Assembly: GCF_055900595.2 (NCBI RefSeq)
Contig: NZ_CM148325.1
Length of the DNA: 64,000 bases
Strand: one strand, 5' to 3'
The notes beneath the pieces were generated by a model that did no database searches, was not told the DNA's origin, and saw only the letters and a program-made list of their open reading frames with translations. The position numbers and the translations under genes were made by a program. Shown here in pieces: positions 17,971 to 24,040 of the stretch; position 1 is the first letter of the stretch; the number at the start of each line of letters is the position of its first letter.

Positions 17971-18595
17971 CTGATTACGCCTCAATCGTTTTCTTTTCTG
18001 GTGATTTTCACCATCACATGTCAGTTGTATATGCAAGGGGATCAATAAAAATATCACCCTGCAAGCACTTCAAAGCTGATTATGGGGATATTCTAGAACT
18101 ATTCACAAAACTATTCCAGACATATCAAGAACTATTTCTTGACCTATTCATAATAAAATAAAACATGCTATCAACTACGGCTCATATTCTCCTTGGGGGT
18201 GTCGTTGTACTGTTCGACTGTTCTTGTGGTCAGATTAACAATCTGAAGAGTAAAAGCGACAGTAATCTGTCTGTTATAGTGGCGATAAAAACACTGAATG
18301 CGCATCCTGTATGTGAAATCCTGTCATGTAGAGCAGTAAGCAATGACAGACATGCATGTTATATGTGAAGGGGGCCGGGAGACGACATAATCAGTATGGC
18401 TGTCATTCTGGTTGTAAAACGCGATCACTTTCCGGGGGTAAAAGATGATATGGAGGTTGACAAACGGTTTGCTTCGGATTGTCTTTTCTGGGGCCTGAAA
18501 TACGAGGGCAGAAAAATAATTCCAGAGTAAATCTGCTCTGTTTTTAGGACAGAAAACTCCATGCTGGCTGTAAAAGTGAAAAATTAACACCCAGT

Positions 18596-19925
18596 ACTGA
18601 TGAATCCCCTAATGATTTTTATCAAAATCATTAAGTTAAGGTAGATACACATCTTGTCATATGATCAAATGGTTTCGCCAAAAATCAATAATCAGACAAC
18701 AAAATGTGCGAACTCGATATTTTACACGACTCTCTTTACCAATTCTGCCCCGAATTACACTTAAAACGACTCAACAGCTTAACGTTGGCTTGCCACGCCT
18801 TACTTGACTGTAAAACTCTCACTCTTACCGAACTTGGCCGTAACCTGCCAACCAAAGCGAGAACAAAACATAACATCAAACGAATCGACCGATTGTTAGG
18901 TAATCGTCACCTCCACAAAGAGCGACTCGCTGTATACCGTTGGCATGCTAGCTTTATCTGTTCGGGCAATACGATGCCCATTGTACTTGTTGACTGGTCT
19001 GATATCCGTGAGCAAAAACGGCTTATGGTATTGCGAGCTTCAGTCGCACTACACGGTCGTTCTGTTACTCTTTATGAGAAAGCGTTCCCGCTTTCAGAGC
19101 AATGTTCAAAGAAAGCTCATGACCAATTTCTAGCCGACCTTGCGAGCATTCTACCGAGTAACACCACACCGCTCATTGTCAGTGATGCTGGCTTTAAAGT
19201 GCCATGGTATAAATCCGTTGAGAAGCTGGGTTGGTACTGGTTAAGTCGAGTAAGAGGAAAAGTACAATATGCAGACCTAGGAGCGGAAAACTGGAAACCT
19301 ATCAGCAACTTACATGATATGTCATCTAGTCACTCAAAGACTTTAGGCTATAAGAGGCTGACTAAAAGCAATCCAATCTCATGCCAAATTCTATTGTATA
19401 AATCTCGCTCTAAAGGCCGAAAAAATCAGCGCTCGACACGGACTCATTGTCACCACCCGTCACCTAAAATCTACTCAGCGTCGGCAAAGGAGCCATGGAT
19501 TCTAGCAACTAACTTACCTGTTGAAATTCGAACACCCAAACAACTTGTTAATATCTATTCGAAGCGAATGCAGATTGAAGAAACCTTCCGAGACTTGAAA
19601 AGTCCTGCCTACGGACTAGGCCTACGCCATAGCCGAACGAGCAGCTCAGAGCGTTTTGATATCATGCTGCTAATCGCCCTGATGCTTCAACTAACATGTT
19701 GGCTTGCGGGCGTTCATGCTCAGAAACAAGGTTGGGACAAGCACTTCCAGGCTAACACAGTCAGAAATCGAAACGTACTCTCAACAGTTCGCTTAGGCAT
19801 GGAAGTTTTGCGGCATTCTGGCTACACAATAACAAGGGAAGACTCACTCGTGGCTGCAACCCTGCTTACTCAAAATCTATTCACACATGGTTACGTTTTG
19901 GGGAAATTATGAGGGGATCTCTCAG
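18596..19925 (+). mobile_element. IS10 (IS4 family), copy 1
   Basis: Outside end CTGATGAATCCCCTAATGATTTT at 18596; inside end ...GGGGATCTCTCAG at 19925; flanked by 9-bp direct repeat CACCCAGTA (18587-18595 and 19926-19934). Confidence 0.95.
18704..19912 (+). CDS. IS10 transposase
   Basis: 402 aa; matches the Tn10/IS10 transposase sequence from memory. Confidence 0.95.
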   Translation: MCELDILHDSLYQFCPELHLKRLNSLTLACHALLDCKTLTLTELGRNLPTKARTKHNIKRIDRLLGNRHLHKERLAVYRWHASFICSGNTMPIVLVDWSDIREQKRLMVLRASVALHGRSVTLYEKAFPLSEQCSKKAHDQFLADLASILPSNTTPLIVSDAGFKVPWYKSVEKLGWYWLSRVRGKVQYADLGAENWKPISNLHDMSSSHSKTLGYKRLTKSNPISCQILLYKSRSKGRKNQRSTRTHCHHPSPKIYSASAKEPWILATNLPVEIRTPKQLVNIYSKRMQIEETFRDLKSPAYGLGLRHSRTSSSERFDIMLLIALMLQLTCWLAGVHAQKQGWDKHFQANTVRNRNVLSTVRLGMEVLRHSGYTITREDSLVAATLLTQNLFTHGYVLGKL

Positions 19926-21005
19926 CACCCAGTATGTATGGAAGTCTGAAGATGTTGAGAATGTCGGTATGATACTATATACACATATTTTACTAAGTAT
20001 TTTTACTAAGCATTTCAGTAAGTGTTATACACGTATTTTCTACTAAGTGTTTTACCAGACATACACGTGTTTTCATAAACAGCCCTATAAGTGTTTTCAT
20101 TAAGCATTGCTGTACACATTGCTTTGTCTGAAACACATCCAGTTTAGTAAATCTTTACGTTAGCTAAAATCAGTTTAAAGCTGCTGTAAAACCTTTCTGT
20201 TTAAGCAATCAATCTGCTATTCGATTTTACTGATGTTGCGTTTAACCTTTTCTGAGATTTCGAGTTTCGACGTTAGCATGAGAAAAGTATCTTTACGCTA
20301 AATCAACCCGAACTTTCCTGAAGTAATCTGACGTTTTTTTCGATGTGCTTACGACGATTCTGTTAAACGACTTTCTGGATGTTTTGATAACAATCAGATT
20401 GAGGCATTAACGATTCCTGACGTTTTCTTTTCCGTGTAAGGTCATTCTTTTTGTCATGAGGTTTCTTCTTGCATTGCGAAAGTGTGATGAACGGTTTTGG
20501 TGTTTTTGATTCAGATAAGGTTTACGTTATCGATGGTTAACCGTTTTTATGGTGCGTAGTGAAACGTAACTTTTTCAGGATGAGAAAATCGATTCTGATG
20601 TTGGTGATTTTTGTTCTTGTGGCGGGGTTTATCTGTAAACAGGTTTTAAACGTGTCATTCACATCCGTGATTGAGTTGTGTGATTAAGCTGTAGGTTTTG
20701 GGGTTGTTGTTGATTTGCATTACCAGGAAGCGTTCTGGTTGCGTTTCTGGTGTTTTGTTCGAATGTTCTGTGGATCCTTTTCCCTTCTGACTTTTCTCGT
20801 TGTCCATGTCGTTTTTAAATCCATTCGCTGTTCTTGAGTGTTTTTACCCTGCGTGTAGAATTATCTTTTCGTTCCGGGATGGTTTGTTCCGTTTCAATCA
20901 CTCTTAATCAGAGAGTTGTAGCATTGCTCAATGCCGGATGCCGTAAAGTTTTACCGCGGTGATTAATGATGTGAAGTCAATCCAAATCAACGGAGATCTC
21001 TCATC

Positions 21006-21737
21006 ATGAATCAACCAATACACAATGCTTACTGGTTATCCCGTTTTGAAAGTATTCTCAACAGTGCCCTGGCGCAGCACCGTGCCGTCTCGTTAATCCG
21101 GGTGGATTTACGTTTCCCTGAGTATATGCCTGCCACCATCATGGATACCGATTTAGATTCAGCGGTGATTTCTCGTTTTTTTGCATCCCTGAAAGCAAAA
21201 ATTCAGGCTTACCAGCGACATAAACGACGTGCCAACAAGCGTGTGCGTGCAACCACTCTGCGTTATTTCTGGTGTCGGGAGTTTGGCAAGGAAAAAGGCA
21301 GGAAACATTATCACGTGATATTACTGCTCAACAAAGATACCTGGTGCTCGCCAGGGGATTTCACCGTTCCTTCTTCGCTGGCGACACTGATCAAGCTGGC
21401 ATGGTGTAGTGCTCTGCATCTTGAGCCCTGGCAGGGTAATGGACTGGTTCATTTTTCCAGGCGGACGCCTTTCCGTAAACCGACATCATCTGATGCTCGC
21501 CCTTCTTCCGATGATACGCCTTTGTCGGGTGGATGTTCTGATACCAGGAAGGCTTCAGACAAAAAGCCGGGTGAAGCCGCTGTTCTCTGGATCAAGCGTG
21601 GTGATGTGGAAGCGCTGCAGAAAGCCCGGAACAGAGCCAGTTATCTCGTGAAATATGAGACGAAGCAGCATGACGGTTCCGGGCAACGTAATTATGGTTG
21701 CAGTCGTGGGCCGGGGCGTCTGCTGGATGGCAGGTGA
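21006..21737 (+). CDS. YagK/YfjJ family protein (inovirus Gp2-like domain)
   Basis: 243 aa with the RVDLRFP motif typical of YfjJ-like island proteins. Confidence 0.65.
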   Translation: MNQPIHNAYWLSRFESILNSALAQHRAVSLIRVDLRFPEYMPATIMDTDLDSAVISRFFASLKAKIQAYQRHKRRANKRVRATTLRYFWCREFGKEKGRKHYHVILLLNKDTWCSPGDFTVPSSLATLIKLAWCSALHLEPWQGNGLVHFSRRTPFRKPTSSDARPSSDDTPLSGGCSDTRKASDKKPGEAAVLWIKRGDVEALQKARNRASYLVKYETKQHDGSGQRNYGCSRGPGRLLDGR

Positions 21738-22093
21738 GCCCTGTAAAACGACATCCGGTGTCTGAGCTTATGCTACAGGACGTTGGCTGACGCCCTTAGC
21801 TCGTTTTCTGAAAAAGTCGTCCTGAAGTCATGCAACGGTATTTTTCTCTGCTTTCGCTCCTGGAAACACTCCGTCGGTAAAACCTTACTGTCCTGCTTAA
21901 TGATGTGAACCGAAGTCAACGGAGATCATTCATTCTGAACCTGCATCCGGTGTTCTGTCCCTTGTCGGTTACCTGATCTTCCCGTTCTGCCGCGGTTTTT
22001 CACTTATTCCATCAACCCCATACGCAAGCCATAACACGTCAGCGCATCCACGGGCAGGACGCGTTGTGGGCTGCGTATAACGGAACATATCTT

Positions 22094-22666
22094 ATGAATG
22101 CTATCCCTTATTTCGACTATAGCATGGCGCCCTTCTGGCCATCTTATCAGAACAAAATCATCGGCGTTCTCAACCGTGTGTTGCGCGAGCAGTCCGGCTC
22201 CAGGATACGGCGGATCCTGCTTCGTCTGCCGGGGGAACATGGCAACATCTTCAGCGACAGAAAAACCTGGTTCGGTATGGCCTTTATCGAAACCGTCAGT
22301 GCGCTGATGAATGCAACCCCCGGACGCGACCTCTGCTGGCTCCTGACACGTCATCCTGAAAAACCGGAATACCACGTGGTGCTGTGCGTCAGACAGGAAT
22401 ATTTCGACGGCCCTGAGCTGGACCGGTTGATTCTGGATGCCTGGAGCAACGTACTGGGCTTCGCGTCACCGGGTGAAGCAGCACCGTACCAGAAACAGAT
22501 AACCCGGGATGTGGTGCTGGACAGTTGTTCACCGGACTGCGAAGAGAGACTCAAAGAGCTGATATGGGCGTTCAGTGATTTCGCCCGCGATCGTCGTGGT
22601 GTGCGCGATCCGGAAGCCCGTTACCTCGCCGGTAATCCCTGGTATCCCGTAGCAGGCCAGCTCTGA
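22094..22666 (+). CDS. YagK/YfjJ family protein (inovirus Gp2-like), second paralog
   Basis: Start taken at internal Met (MNAIPYF); the track ORF begins at 22064; upstream leader is similar to that of the gene at 21006. Confidence 0.55.
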   Translation: MNAIPYFDYSMAPFWPSYQNKIIGVLNRVLREQSGSRIRRILLRLPGEHGNIFSDRKTWFGMAFIETVSALMNATPGRDLCWLLTRHPEKPEYHVVLCVRQEYFDGPELDRLILDAWSNVLGFASPGEAAPYQKQITRDVVLDSCSPDCEERLKELIWAFSDFARDRRGVRDPEARYLAGNPWYPVAGQL

Positions 22667-22734
22667 AAGCTCAGCTCAGCAGATTCACCCGCATTTGCCC
22701 AACATTCATAAATCTCACAGAGGACATTCTGACC

Positions 22735-22971
22735 ATGTTGACCTCAATGACAGGTCACGACAGCGTATTGCTGCGTGCCGACGATCCCCTGATCGACATG
22801 AACTACATCACCAGCTTCACTGGTATGACCGACAAATGGTTTTACAAGCTGATCAGTGAAGGCCATTTCCCTAAACCCATCAAACTGGGGCGCAGCAGCC
22901 GCTGGTACAAAAGTGAAGTGGAGCAGTGGATGCAGCAACGAATCGAGGCATCACGAGGGGCAGCAGCATGA
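22735..22971 (+). CDS. AlpA-family phage/island transcriptional regulator (HTH)
   Basis: 78 aa; SFTGMTDKWFYKLISEGHFPKPIKLGRSSRWYKSEVEQW resembles the AlpA HTH family. Confidence 0.7.
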   Translation: MLTSMTGHDSVLLRADDPLIDMNYITSFTGMTDKWFYKLISEGHFPKPIKLGRSSRWYKSEVEQWMQQRIEASRGAAA

Positions 22972-23171
22972 AACGTGTTGTAATGCCGGTACGCTGGCAA
23001 TGTGCAAAATACCAGCGTTGGTATTGTGGAAATCAGCCCTGTCCCTGGTGCTGGCGACCTGCTGCCCCCGTCTGTCATTCCTCGTTCTTCGCTGTAACAG
23101 GCATCGTACCGGTCTCGGCGTGCTTTCCTGCGTACCGACACCGGTTCAGCAACATTCAAGGGGATCAAATC

Positions 23172-23720
23172 GTGCAAATAACCGAAACCGTACTTTCAGA
23201 GCCGGTGGAAATCCGGCGTTTTATTCAGCAGGCGGTGGATCACTGGCCGCGTCTGCTGGCCGTCCACTTCACACTCCATTCGGCAGAAGGAAACATCAAC
23301 GGACAACAGATTCATGCATTCTGTACTTCCTTTTACCGACAGGTGCACGAGCGTATTACTGAACGTAATCACACGGCCAGTCCAGCACCACCGGTGGTAT
23401 TACGCTGGTTGCGGGAACAACATGGAGGAGCAACAATGCGATGCCTGTTGCTGCTCAGCCAGACGAGCATTTGCCATCCACGGGTCAGTGCCACGGTTGA
23501 TGAAGAATGTTCGCAACGGGTGGATTTATTGCAACAGACATGGCGGGTGATAAGTGCTGACGGACAATGCCGGGTGGAAAGGTGTTTTCAGGCTGCCCGG
23601 GGTGATACATCCGGCCAGTATATTGCGTTAAAAACAGTTGCATTGTCTCTGGGGTTACCGGTTGTGACCGGTATTACCCATCGCCCGGTACAGCGCTGTA
23701 CATTGATTACAGCTCAGTGA
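23172..23720 (+). CDS. Island protein related to the YfjJ/Gp2-like family (third paralog); start uncertain
   Basis: GTG 23172 with AAGGGG upstream; the track ORF reaches back to 22926; a degraded copy of the same sequence lies at 52140-52500. Confidence 0.45.
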   Translation: MQITETVLSEPVEIRRFIQQAVDHWPRLLAVHFTLHSAEGNINGQQIHAFCTSFYRQVHERITERNHTASPAPPVVLRWLREQHGGATMRCLLLLSQTSICHPRVSATVDEECSQRVDLLQQTWRVISADGQCRVERCFQAARGDTSGQYIALKTVALSLGLPVVTGITHRPVQRCTLITAQ

Positions 23721-23737
23721 ACAGCGCTGTTGTGCAG

Positions 23738-24040
23738 TCAACGAGGTTTTCTGTCTTTTCGTCGGTCATTCAGCATCATTAAACGGGTCTCTGCCTCTTT
23801 CTGTTCCTGTGGTGTCACTTCCCCGCACGGCTGACCGTTCAGGTTGTAACGGGCGCCACCTGCTATTAACGCACGGTAATAGCGCGGAGACTGCACATAA
23901 GACGCCACTGCTGCATGTAATGTACCAGCGCCAAACGCCAGTTCTCGGATGGCGATATCCTGTATCAGGTCGTCAGGTATCCCCACTTTAAGTGGTTTTG
24001 TTTTTTTCCCGGTTGAATGACTCAGGCCAGAGTTCCACAA
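23738..24040 (-). CDS. Hypothetical protein (100 aa)
   Basis: ORF only; no recognised motif. Confidence 0.3.
   Translation of the reverse strand: MWNSGLSHSTGKKTKPLKVGIPDDLIQDIAIRELAFGAGTLHAAVASYVQSPRYYRALIAGGARYNLNGQPCGEVTPQEQKEAETRLMMLNDRRKDRKPR

What the first reader, a model, noticed from the sequence alone, without database searches (positions are those of the whole stretch)
19926..21005. 1.1-kb non-coding, repeat-containing region with a duplicated leader before two YfjJ-like genes
No ORF of 60 aa or more occurs for 1.1 kb after IS10. The region contains clustered TACTAAG-type motifs (about 19990-20060). The roughly 60 bp immediately before the YfjJ-like gene at 21006 (TTAATGATGTGAAGTCAATCCAAATCAACGGAGATC) recurs before the next YfjJ-like gene at about 21895-21945. 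This may be a shared promoter or operator, a small RNA, or a remnant replication or packaging region of the island.
Basis: seen in the sequence. Interest (0 to 1): 0.45.

Follow-up and report, generated by a model that had tools for sequence, protein, structure and literature searches.

The report
Long control region before island Rep-like gene
This is a real, widespread but unannotated stretch of non-coding DNA in E. coli genomic islands that sits in front of a replication-type nuclease gene; its two ends look like control sites (including a short leader that folds over the gene's start codon), while its long T-rich middle shows no sign of encoding a protein or a structured RNA.

Summary
Window 19926-21005 has no ORF above 50 aa, a cluster of TACTAAG-type direct repeats, and a roughly 65-nt leader that recurs at 21877-21939.

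It is the larger part of a 1.6-1.7 kb intergenic region split by IS10 (18597-19925). Homologues occur in 1875 of 5426 complete E. coli genomes, median two copies. They always lie upstream of a 243-aa YagK/YfjJ ("inovirus Gp2") gene, which I show has an HUH Rep-nuclease fold.

The region is non-coding and is not a structured RNA. Its T-rich body evolves at about the synonymous rate, and other islands replace or interrupt it.

The constrained parts are the two ends:
- a 5' block with a variable repeat array and the palindrome GTAAATCTTTAC;
- a 155-nt gene-proximal module with GTAAAGTTTTAC, a mini-uORF (ATG ATG TGA) and a hairpin pairing AUGAUG with CAUCAU across the start codon.

An upstream ATGA and a segment paired with the ribosome-binding region recur before YfjJ-family genes in many genera.

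Best reading: an operator plus translational-gating leader for a Rep-like gene, preceded by an AT-rich spacer. An origin function for the HUH protein is not excluded. Function is untested.

The parts
18512..18596 (+). 5' start of the conserved non-coding module, now separated from the rest by IS10. The last 9 nt (18588-18596, CACCCAGTA) are the IS10 target site.
   Evidence: Homology among all island lineages begins here (AAAATAATTCCAGAGTAAA...), whatever gene lies upstream. Junction sequence read.
18597..19925 (.). IS10 (1329 bp) inserted into the non-coding region. It interrupts the feature and is not part of it.
   Evidence: 402-aa transposase ORF 18704-19912. RNA-OUT at 18642-18711, 97 bits. 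Ends and 9-bp duplication read.
19926..19985 (+). Conserved 5' block (19926-19934 is the duplicated IS10 target). It contains an extended -10-like TGATACTAT, a candidate distal promoter (inference only).
   Evidence: Majority conservation 0.86-0.94 over 29 representatives. The consensus promoter scan did not pick it up.
19986..20110 (+). Array of 12-13-nt direct repeats (TTTTACTAAGTRT / TAAGTGTTTT, interleaved with TACACRT). Copy number differs between islands.
   Evidence: TRF period 13 x 5.2. Repeat families D3, D4, D7. Motif counts. 2-6 copies among lineages with the array intact, and indels of whole units. Conservation drops to 0.17-0.57 here.
20147..20158 (.). Palindromic box 1, GTAAATCTTTAC.
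   Evidence: GTAAANNTTTAC occurs twice in 64 kb against 0.02 expected. Identical in about 33 lineages; one lineage has it duplicated 17 nt apart.
20160..20852 (+). T-rich, A-poor body (T up to 46%, A down to 10%). No ORF, no RNA structure, near-neutral divergence. Positions 20521-20852 are replaced by a segment carrying a 176-aa gene in other islands.
   Evidence: Composition. Divergence against 4-fold sites. Folding z-scores and SCI. Replacement variant. The best conserved sub-block, 20506-20545, scores 0.97-0.98.
20853..21005 (+). Gene-proximal module that stays attached to the gene when everything upstream is replaced. The last 65 nt or so are invariant.
   Evidence: Loci where only region positions 928-1083 remain homologous. 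Conservation 0.94-1.0 (the sample was selected with a pattern inside this block).
20943..20954 (.). Palindromic box 2, GTAAAGTTTTAC, about 60 nt upstream of the start codon.
   Evidence: Related boxes (GTAAATCATTAC, GTAAAGAATTAC) lie at -57 in the Erwinia, Hafnia and Limnobaculum loci, and a degenerate form (GTAAATAATAAC) at -57 in the Yersinia loci.
20966..20974 (+). Mini-uORF ATG ATG TGA, lying in the 5' arm of the leader hairpin.
   Evidence: Read from the sequence. ATGA at -42..-24 in 32 of 48 family leaders against 23 of 323 control leaders, Fisher p 9e-20.
20961..21012 (+). Leader hairpin. GAUU and AUGAUG (20961-20971) pair with CAUCAU and AAUC (21002-21012), burying the main AUG (21006). 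The Shine-Dalgarno GGAG is at 20992-20995.
   Evidence: strand folding: -14.1 kcal/mol, z -1.85, MFE equals centroid. Family-wide excess pairing between -44..-21 and the initiation region: 8.5 against 5.4 pairs, p 8e-7.
21006..21737 (+). 243-aa YagK/YfjJ ("inovirus Gp2") family gene: an HUH Rep-like nuclease with motifs IRVDLRFP, HYHVILLL and YLVKYETK.
21877..21939 (+). Second copy of the leader: box GTAAAACCTTAC 21877-21888, uORF ATG ATG TGA 21900-21908, GGAG. It has no start codon behind it.
   Evidence: The same copy precedes the gene-2 homologue in another island (L002 23056-23086). Its hairpin is not better than shuffles (z +0.5).
22020..22078 (+). Strong hairpin between leader copy 2 and the Shine-Dalgarno site of gene 2.
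   Evidence: Inverted repeat I1. -32.9 kcal/mol, z -4.4, 0 of 200 shuffles as stable.
22094..22666 (+). 190-aa degenerate YfjJ paralogue. EYHVVL replaces HYHVIL, and there is no Tyr motif.
   Evidence: No Pfam or PHROG hit. BLASTP E 0.022. hhalign against the family profile: probability 85%, E 6.6e-6.

Best explanation
The finding is the cis-control region of an island gene cluster headed by a YfjJ/Gp2-type HUH (Rep-like) nuclease gene. It is DNA that encodes neither a protein nor a structured RNA, and it has three parts.

(a) A distal block (18512-18596 plus 19935-20160). It holds a well conserved 50-60 nt, an array of 12-13-nt direct repeats whose copy number drifts, and the palindrome GTAAATCTTTAC. 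I read these as binding sites for an island-encoded DNA-binding protein, which is inference.

(b) A T-rich, A-poor body of about 700 nt. It is 37% G+C in a 50% genome and drifts at roughly the synonymous rate. Other islands cut it, replace it or fill it with genes or IS elements. It most likely acts, if at all, through composition, as an AT-rich and probably H-NS-coated spacer or long untranslated leader. That too is inference.

(c) A 155-nt gene-proximal module that always travels with the gene. It carries a second palindrome, GTAAAGTTTTAC. It also has a two-codon uORF whose AUGAUG pairs with CAUCAU over the main start codon, so the initiation region is locked in a hairpin (shown by folding). 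Opening the hairpin would let the Rep-like protein be made. A ribosome on the mini-uORF or a trans factor could do this, which is inference. This resembles the way leader-peptide coupling gates plasmid replication-initiator genes.

The second leader copy, in front of the degenerate paralogue, is the paralogous version of the same control element.
For: Shown:
- Non-coding. ORFs are 50 aa or less. Indels among lineages are not multiples of 3, and candidate small ORFs lose their starts or frames. No protein-level similarity to neighbouring ORFs of 70+ related loci, or to the 176-aa gene that replaces part of the body.
- Not a structured RNA. No Rfam hit. Folding z-scores are about 0 along both strands. 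SCI is 0-0.39 on 29 representatives.
- Linked to the gene. The same order, backbone - long gap - Gp2-family gene - cargo, appears in all 10 annotated E. coli homologue loci examined. The region is present in 1875 of 5426 genomes.
- Ends constrained, middle not. See the conservation profile. Non-coding identity is 0.81-0.96 against 0.85-0.97 at 4-fold sites, with mosaic relationships. The last 155 nt are retained when the rest is replaced, and the first 600 nt or so are retained when 20521-20852 is replaced.
- Palindromes. GTAANNNNTTAC occurs three times in 64 kb, all here, against 0.43 expected. Box 1 is identical in about 33 lineages.
- Leader hairpin over the start codon.
- Family-wide layout. 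ATGA lies at -42..-24 (p 9e-20). There is excess pairing of -44..-21 with the initiation region (p 8e-7). Stem sequences differ between genera, for example CAGTAATT/AATTACTG, CCTATGA/TCATAGG, ACTCCT/AGGAGT and CCACGGG/CCCGTGG.
- Gene 1 has an HUH fold.
Against: - No promoter has been located. The only sigma-70-like site in front of the gene (20834-20861) is not conserved.
- The E. coli leader hairpin is only moderately better than shuffles (z -1.85). It cannot show covariation because it is invariant in E. coli.
- The family-wide tests use sequences that are phylogenetically related, and start codons that I assigned myself.
- Accessibility of the Shine-Dalgarno site alone is not significantly lower than in controls (p 0.08).
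- Most mini-uORFs lack a Shine-Dalgarno site of their own, so their translation is doubtful. The upstream ATG may simply follow from complementarity to CATG.
- No binding protein is identified for the boxes or the array.
- There is no 10-11-bp A-tract phasing that would indicate curved DNA. H-NS binding is untested.
- A neutral middle does not explain why about 700 nt persist at similar length (box-to-box distance 722-808 nt), nor the strong T>A skew.
Confidence: 0.5

Rival explanations
1. The region, or its conserved ends, is the cis-acting origin for the adjacent HUH protein. Under this reading the direct repeats and palindromes are the protein's binding sites, and a nick site lies nearby. 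After excision the island would be replicated by rolling circle, or nicked for transfer or packaging. This resembles HUH replicons (geminivirus and circovirus intergenic regions, the pMV158 dso, the Ff intergenic region before gene II), where origin and rep promoter overlap.
For: - Gene 1 has all three HUH Rep motifs and an HUH fold.
- The non-coding region sits directly upstream of it, as in Ff phage and CRESS viruses (established knowledge).
- An array of direct repeats with variable copy number is present.
- Palindromic boxes are unique to this locus.
- A hairpin with genus-specific stems lies next to the rep-like gene in many genera.
- The T>A, G>C skew of the + strand is the sign expected for a strand often left single-stranded.
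- Related Pseudomonas islands with a Gp2-like gene excise and form circles or concatemers (PMC12595487).
Against: - The only family-wide hairpin overlaps the Shine-Dalgarno site or start codon, which fits translation control better.
- Some stems use G-U pairs that work only in RNA (L052, L045).
- No loop motif is conserved across genera.
- No strong single-strand hairpins of the kind a single-strand origin would need.
- No IHF consensus site.
- The array and the body are deleted or replaced in many islands that keep the gene.
- No phage or viral contig carries the sequence.
- The one plasmid record examined of the four that carry it is an IncF replicon holding a fragment, not an excised island.
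Confidence: 0.2
2. Apart from the last 155 nt or so, the stretch is decaying DNA with no function. It would be the eroded remains of genes of the ancestral element, kept only because deletions have not yet removed it.
For: - Divergence is equal to or above that of 4-fold sites in the neighbouring gene.
- It tolerates IS10, IS1, IS66 and a gene insertion or replacement.
- The T>A skew on the + strand matches that of a minus-strand gene that occupies the same place in other islands.
- PGAP calls small minus-strand ORFs there in some genomes.
Against: - No residual protein similarity in any frame.
- No ORF above 94 codons in any of 29 lineages, and the frames differ.
- Length is held within about 10% across lineages 20% diverged.
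- Sub-blocks such as box 1 and 20506-20545 are far better conserved than the average.
- The region is present at 80% coverage or more in 1309 genomes.
Confidence: 0.2
3. The region encodes a long non-coding RNA or one or more small RNAs acting in trans, perhaps with the ProQ/FinO-like protein encoded 3 kb downstream.
For: It is long, conserved and unannotated. A ProQ/FinO-domain gene lies at 23738-24040 (PF04352, 4.9e-17). The + strand is G>C and U-rich, which is poor Rho-loading sequence (inference).
Against: No Rfam hit at E of 1 or less. No folding excess. SCI is 0-0.39 with no supported covariation. No conserved promoter-terminator pair. The ProQ-like gene is frameshifted in the closest genome.
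Confidence: 0.05

Closest known systems
Leader-peptide-coupled translation control of plasmid replication initiators (IncFII tap-repA; IncI-alpha/IncB repY-repZ)
   Same: A replication-type gene whose ribosome-binding region is shut in a hairpin, with a very short upstream ORF lying in the sequence that closes it (sequence). An IncF plasmid fetched here happens to annotate tap-repA.
   Different: No antisense RNA or pseudoknot was found. The uORF has only two codons and usually lacks its own Shine-Dalgarno site. The regulated protein is an HUH nuclease, not a RepA-type initiator. The element is integrated in the chromosome. Nothing has been tested experimentally.
Origin-plus-promoter intergenic regions of HUH replicons (Ff phage IG region before gene II; geminivirus/circovirus common region; pMV158 dso)
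   Same: A non-coding region immediately upstream of an HUH Rep-like gene, containing direct repeats, palindromes and a hairpin.
   Different: Much longer, at 1.1-1.7 kb. No conserved loop or nick motif. The hairpin overlaps the start codon. The array is dispensable in many copies. No evidence of replication.
AT-rich, H-NS-silenced regulatory regions of horizontally acquired islands
   Same: 37.5% G+C against 50% for the window, located at the backbone/cargo junction of an island, and a frequent IS target.
   Different: Strong T>A strand skew. No helical phasing of A/T tracts. H-NS binding is not known.
oriT-only islands (iOriT) proposed for E. coli pathogenicity islands (bioRxiv 10.64898/2026.01.13.699239)
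   Same: The same class of island: P4-type backbone with antirestriction, RadC and toxin-antitoxin genes. A large intergenic region lies next to a nuclease-type gene.
   Different: The tellurite/Iha island (SpLE1 of O157 Sakai), named there as carrying oriT_rM6, has no homologue of this region in the 50 kb I checked. The backbone genes run away from this region, which is not the orientation expected of a leading region. That orientation argument rests on my own reasoning from established knowledge of F-type leading regions. The published oriT profiles could not be run here.

Membership tests
Any Rfam RNA family | Match to a curated covariance model | tested here: not met
   cmscan of 18000-24000 at E of 1 or less found only RNA-OUT of IS10 and one chance-level hit inside gene 1.
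Structured non-coding RNA (undescribed) | Conserved secondary structure with covariation, or excess thermodynamic stability | tested here: not met
   Sliding-window z-scores are mostly between -1 and +1. SCI is 0-0.39 on 29 representatives, both strands. The exception is the local hairpin over the start codon.
Protein-coding gene or recent pseudogene | Conserved reading frame or residual protein similarity | tested here: not met
Iteron-type theta replication origin | Perfect DnaA box(es) and IHF site next to iterons and an AT-rich unwinding element | tested here: not met
   No perfect TTATNCACA in the region, only four one-mismatch sites. No WATCAANNNNTTR. Only two GATC sites (read from the sequence). 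The adjacent gene is an HUH protein, not a RepA-type protein.
Iteron-type theta replication origin | Tandem direct repeats (iterons) | tested here: inconclusive
   A 12-13-nt array is present, but it is only 66% self-similar and its copy number varies from 2 to 6.
Rolling-circle double-strand origin of an HUH Rep | Adjacent gene is an HUH nuclease with motifs I-III | tested here: met
Rolling-circle double-strand origin of an HUH Rep | Conserved hairpin presenting a conserved nick sequence | tested here: inconclusive
   A hairpin next to the gene is family-wide, but its stems and loops differ and it overlaps the Shine-Dalgarno site or start codon. ATGA is the only shared motif.
Rolling-circle double-strand origin of an HUH Rep | Nicking by, and replication dependent on, the Rep protein | not testable with these tools
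   The one plasmid record examined of the four that carry the sequence has an IncF replicon. No viral contig carries it.
Conjugative oriT (iOriT) | Similarity to an oriT family of a helper element | not tested
   The oriT HMMs (figshare 10.6084/M9.FIGSHARE.31047685) are not available here. A distant blastn in E. coli genomes finds only copies of this same island region. SpLE1 lacks it in the 50 kb checked.
Leader-peptide / hairpin translational gate | Initiation region base-paired with an upstream segment | tested here: met
   E. coli leader: -14.1 kcal/mol with the AUG inside the stem. Family against controls: 8.5 against 5.4 pairs, p 8e-7. Accessibility of -14..+3: 0.405 against 0.465, p 0.004.
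Leader-peptide / hairpin translational gate | Translated upstream ORF overlapping the closing arm | tested here: inconclusive
   An ATG is present at -42..-24 in 35 of 48 leaders against 28% of controls. The ORFs are often only 2-6 codons (some read through into the main frame) and most lack a Shine-Dalgarno site. Translation cannot be tested here.
H-NS-silenced xenogeneic DNA | A+T content well above the host genome | tested here: met
   37.5% G+C against about 50% for the window.
H-NS-silenced xenogeneic DNA | H-NS occupancy; often phased A-tracts | tested here: not met
   No 10-11-bp periodicity of AAA/TTT. Occupancy is not testable here.
YagK/YfjJ (PF11726) for the two flanked genes | Match above the Pfam gathering score | tested here: met
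   Gene 1 scores 125 bits against a cut-off of 25.8. Gene 2 fails Pfam and is linked only by profile comparison. "Two YfjJ-like genes" is therefore true only loosely.

The most novel reading that the evidence does not exclude
The YfjJ/Gp2-family protein is an active HUH nickase, and this upstream region holds its origin: direct repeats and GTAA-N4-TTAC boxes as binding sites, with a nick site in or beside the leader hairpin. If so, the P4-type pathogenicity and fitness islands found in a third of E. coli genomes would replicate by rolling circle, or be nicked for transfer or packaging, after excision. That would be an unrecognised mobility module for islands whose spread is unexplained.
Probability: 0.15. 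Interest if true: 0.8.

Novelty: new variant of a known kind. Interest (0 to 1): 0.42.

Why it matters
Conserved non-coding stretches longer than 1 kb are rare in E. coli. This one is present in about 35% of complete genomes, often in several copies, and carries no annotation. It lies at the junction between the conserved backbone and the cargo of islands that carry aerobactin, IreA, adhesins and defence genes.

It precedes a gene that I show to be an HUH Rep-type nuclease of unknown role. If the leader gates that protein, it is a handle on whether and when these islands become active. If the region is the protein's origin, it would explain how such islands multiply or move.

The family-wide leader signature gives a concrete, testable cis element for a protein family listed among the uncharacterised E. 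coli y-genes. The signature is an upstream ATGA plus a segment paired with the initiation region, seen in Enterobacterales, Vibrio, Psychromonas, Alcaligenes and others.

Tried and rejected
- **Small membrane peptide (20559-20687, MKRNFFRMRKSILMLVIFVLVAGFICKQ...).** Rejected. Both ATGs become ATA and a 1-nt deletion shifts the frame in other lineages.
- **Minus-strand small ORF annotated by PGAP in some genomes (57-82 aa).** It is a low-complexity K/N/E/T-rich translation, and frame and length vary.
- **Decayed copy of neighbouring genes or of the 176-aa replacement gene.** No tblastn signal.
- **Homologue in K-12.** yagJ has the same length (732 bp) but no DNA similarity. yfjJ and yagK regions show no similarity either, so K-12 data cannot be used.
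- **Phage or satellite origin.** No match in 50,697 phage records or in IMG/VR.
- **Excised island seen as a plasmid.** CP088396.1 is an IncF plasmid carrying a fragment.
- **Link to the oriT proposed for tellurite/Iha islands.** SpLE1 lacks the region in the 50 kb checked. The SGI-4 oriT paper is not held.
- **Curved DNA.** No helical phasing. There is only a weak 12-13-nt signal that reflects the repeat unit.
- **Other motifs.** TTCTG is enriched (9 against 2.3 expected), but that is not convincing after multiple testing. The sigma-28 -35 look-alike TAAAGTTT in box 2 has no matching -10 (read from the sequence).
- **Promoter at 20834-20861.** The -10 is not conserved.
- **Literature search for the sequence strings.** No papers.
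Full report
**1. What is at the coordinates**

Window 19926-21005 contains no ORF longer than 50 aa. It is 37.5% G+C against about 50% for the window. The + strand is strongly T-rich and A-poor: T is 39% overall and 42-46% between 20400 and 20900, where A falls to 10-18%.

The stretch is the right-hand part of a longer intergenic region.
- IS10 occupies 18597-19925. Evidence is the transposase ORF, RNA-OUT at 97 bits, and the terminal sequences with a 9-bp target duplication CACCCAGTA at 18588-18596 and 19926-19934.
- Without IS10, the gap runs from the divergent upstream gene (annotated end about 17970) to the ATG at 21006. That is about 1.7 kb, as seen intact in other genomes.

**2. Distribution and context**

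Megablast finds the 1080 nt in 1875 of 5426 complete E. coli genomes. Of these, 1309 have at least 80% coverage. The median is two places per genome and the maximum eight, almost all chromosomal. A distant search adds essentially nothing. PGAP annotates nothing there, or only tiny hypothetical ORFs.

In all 10 annotated E. coli homologue loci examined the order is the same:
- the conserved island backbone (toxin-antitoxin, RadC-like, antirestriction, DUF932 and GTPase genes) reading away from the region;
- one or two hypothetical genes;
- the long gap;
- a 243-aa "inovirus Gp2 family" gene;
- variable cargo, such as ireA, a restriction enzyme, pseudouridine genes, or aerobactin as here.

Other collections give little:
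- K-12 has no DNA homologue.
- Phage records and IMG/VR contigs have none.
- Four plasmids carry it. The one examined is an IncF plasmid holding a fragment.
- Protein relatives at 30-45% identity occur in many Gammaproteobacteria and some Betaproteobacteria. Their upstream ORF-free gaps are also long, mostly 400-800 nt, and AT-rich. They lack the T>A skew. Gaps above 1.2 kb occur only in the E. coli type and three Budvicia loci.

**3. What the flanked gene is**

Gene 21006-21737 matches PF11726 (YagK_YfjJ_C, 2.9e-36) and PF23343 (REP_ORF2-G2P, 3.4e-10). It also matches PHROG replication-initiation families.

A 12-sequence family alignment keeps three motifs: IRVDLRxP, the HUH motif KHYHVxLLLN, and RAxYLxKxxTK with an invariant Tyr.

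The gene therefore encodes a stand-alone HUH Rep-like nuclease domain.

The next gene (22094-22666) has no Pfam or PHROG hit. It aligns to the family profile over motifs I and II (hhalign probability 85%, E 6.6e-6). However, EYH replaces HYH and the Tyr motif is missing. It is a degenerate paralogue. A third ORF (23172-23720) aligns only at chance level.

**4. The region is non-coding and not a structured RNA**

*Coding tests*
- Among nine, then 58, homologous copies, indels are of 1, 2, 4, 5, 11, 12, 13 and 20 nt.
- The most gene-like small ORF is a hydrophobic 35-42-aa peptide at 20559-20687. It loses both ATGs and its frame in other lineages.
- No lineage has a stop-free stretch above 94 codons, and the positions vary.
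- ORFs from 70+ related loci, and the 176-aa gene that replaces part of the body elsewhere, give no translated similarity.

*RNA tests*
- Rfam finds nothing.
- Sliding 120-nt windows fold no better than dinucleotide shuffles on either strand.
- On 29 representatives less than 97% identical to each other, the structure conservation index is 0-0.39 everywhere.

**5. Pattern of constraint**

Pairwise identity of the non-coding DNA is 0.81-0.96. That is no higher than at 4-fold degenerate sites of the adjacent gene (0.85-0.97). The two compartments give conflicting relationships, so the region is a recombination mosaic.

The conservation profile picks out these blocks:
- 19946-19985;
- 20146-20185;
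- 20506-20545, scoring 0.97-0.98;
- 20666-20745;
- above all 20926-21005, scoring 0.94-1.0. This held in the BLAST-selected sample as well as in the pattern-selected sample.

Natural variants show what can be lost.
- One group keeps only the last 155 nt or so (window 20853-21008, 82% identity). Unrelated DNA, an IS66 or an integrase fragment lies upstream.
- Another common variant keeps region positions 1-57, 94-595 and 928-1080. It replaces 20521-20852 with about 1.2 kb carrying a 176-aa minus-strand gene.

The two ends are therefore the retained modules, and the T-rich body is replaceable.

**6. Repeats and boxes**

The TACTAAG-type cluster is real.
- All three exact copies in 64 kb lie within 57 nt.
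- TRF gives period 13 x 5.2 copies.
- TAAGTGTTTT-like units number 11 against 3.8 expected in the window.
- Units are gained and lost between lineages, with 2-6 copies where the array is intact.

The palindrome GTAAANNTTTAC occurs twice in 64 kb (0.02 expected), at 20147 and 20943. The relaxed form GTAANNNNTTAC occurs three times, the third (21877) in the second leader copy (0.43 expected).

Box 1 is letter-perfect in about 33 lineages. Its distance to box 2 ranges from 722 to 808 nt with no preferred phase.

Other origin- or silencer-type signals are absent:
- no IHF consensus site;
- no perfect DnaA box;
- no 10-11-bp A-tract phasing.

**7. The leader**

The last 65 nt or so read as follows: GTAAAGTTTTAC, 11 nt, ATG ATG TGA, 17 nt, GGAG, 10 nt, ATG.

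Folded as RNA, GAUU.AUGAUG (20961-20971) pairs with CAUCAU.AAUC (21002-21012). The main start codon therefore sits inside the stem. The energy is -14.1 kcal/mol, the MFE equals the centroid, and z is -1.85.

The copy at 21877-21939 keeps the box, the uORF and GGAG but has no start codon. A very stable hairpin (22020-22078, z -4.4) and a second GGA-type ribosome site follow before gene 2. The same copy precedes the gene-2 homologue in an island where a different, short Gp2-type gene lies upstream. So it belongs to gene 2.

Leaders of family members from other genera cannot be aligned outside a few anchors, but they share a layout. It consists of an A/T tract ending in TTAC or TAC, then about 14 nt, then (Y)ATGA, a loop, a segment complementary to the 5' part that overlaps the Shine-Dalgarno site or the start codon, and the ATG.

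Statistical tests against 323 other genes in the same loci:

| Measure | Family leaders | Controls | p |
|---|---|---|---|
| ATGA at -42..-24 | 32 of 48 | 23 of 323 | 9e-20 |
| Predicted base pairs between -44..-21 and -18..+5 | 8.5 | 5.4 | 8e-7 |
| Unpaired probability of -14..+3 | 0.405 | 0.465 | 0.004 |
| Unpaired probability of the Shine-Dalgarno site alone | 0.402 | 0.449 | 0.08 (not significant) |

Stem sequences differ between genera while staying complementary. Examples are CAGTAATT/AATTACTG, CCTATGA/TCATAGG, ACTCCT/AGGAGT, CCACGGG/CCCGTGG, and CTTACTTATG/CATAGGTAAG, which includes a U-G pair.

Caveats: the sequences are related to each other, and I assigned the start codons.

The upstream ATG often opens a 2-6-codon ORF (ATG AAA TAA, ATG AAC TGA, ATG ACA TAA and others). 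It usually lacks its own ribosome site. It may partly be a by-product of complementarity to CATG.

**8. Interpretation**

The best-supported reading is a composite control region.
- *Shown:* it is non-coding, it is physically tied to the HUH gene, its ends are constrained, its palindromes are specific to this locus, and its leader sequesters the start codon in a way that recurs across the family.
- *Inferred:* the boxes and array bind a regulator, possibly the HUH protein itself. The hairpin gates translation and could be opened by a ribosome on the mini-uORF. The AT-rich body acts as a silencer, spacer or long leader.

The functional analogy is the gating of plasmid replication-initiator genes by leader peptides and hairpins.

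The main rival is an origin for the HUH protein. It is attractive because origin and rep promoter overlap in many HUH replicons. Related Pseudomonas islands with a Gp2-like gene excise as circles or concatemers (PMC12595487).

Nothing here demonstrates a nick site, and the array is dispensable in many copies. A recent preprint proposes that many pathogenicity islands carry helper-type oriTs (10.64898/2026.01.13.699239). The island family it names (SpLE1/TAI) lacks this region in the 50 kb I checked, and its profiles could not be run here.

**9. Novelty**

I found no description of this region or of the leader in the held literature. It is not in Rfam. In kind it is a regulatory intergenic region and 5' leader, so it is not categorically new. 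What is unusual is its length, its spread, its link to an uncharacterised HUH family, and the family-wide leader signature.

Noticed in passing
window 18597-19925, with 18588-18596 and 19926-19934: Complete IS10 (1329 bp) with a 9-bp target duplication CACCCAGTA. The first 9 nt of the finding are therefore the duplicated target, not unique sequence. Other genomes carry IS1A, IS3 or IS66 in or beside the same intergenic region.
   Followed up: yes
window 18096-18153: A second array of four direct repeats, (A/C)CTATT(C/T), lies in the distal part of the same intergenic region, 130-180 nt upstream of the annotated start (about 17970) of the divergent 263/291-aa gene. The array differs in sequence but is also present in another lineage (L006). 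It may be an operator for that gene.
   Followed up: partly
window 22020-22078: A very stable hairpin (-32.9 kcal/mol, z -4.4, 0 of 200 shuffles as stable) immediately upstream of the ribosome site of gene 2, between it and the second leader copy.
   Followed up: partly
window 22094-22666 and 23172-23720: Gene 2 is a YfjJ paralogue that has lost the first His of HUH and the catalytic Tyr motif, so it is probably non-catalytic. The next ORF but one aligns collinearly to the family only at chance level. An AlpA-type HTH gene (22735-22971) lies between them, so the cluster looks like an excision/replication module.
   Followed up: partly
window 23738-24040 (minus strand): A ProQ/FinO-domain ORF (PF04352, 4.9e-17). 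It is annotated as frameshifted in the closest genome. An RNA chaperone gene lies 3 kb from a long non-coding region, but I found no RNA partner.
   Followed up: no
L162 7613-8143 and L163 7711-8241; also L097 and L124: In a common island variant, the middle of the non-coding region (window 20521-20852) is replaced by about 1.2 kb carrying a 176-aa minus-strand gene of unknown function (WP_000778605.1).
   Followed up: partly
window 21006-21737, residues 153-188: The E. coli protein has a Ser/Pro/Asp-rich insertion of about 40 residues. It is absent from relatives in other genera (about 190 aa) and is modelled at pLDDT below 50. Several database members of the family are frameshifted within it (P0048, P0058, P0083).
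   Followed up: no
window 20171-20209: Three consecutive 13-nt units (CAGTTTAAAGCTG, CTGTAAAACCTTT, CTGTTTAAGCAAT), plus a weak 13-nt periodicity of A/T triplets across the body (z about 4). The body may have grown by expansion of the same 13-nt unit as the array.
   Followed up: partly
L090 7501-8232 (K-12 yagJ): K-12 yagJ is exactly 732 bp, like gene 1, and sits next to an IS1. It has no DNA similarity to gene 1, and I did not compare the proteins. Only yagK and yfjJ carry the family name.
   Followed up: partly
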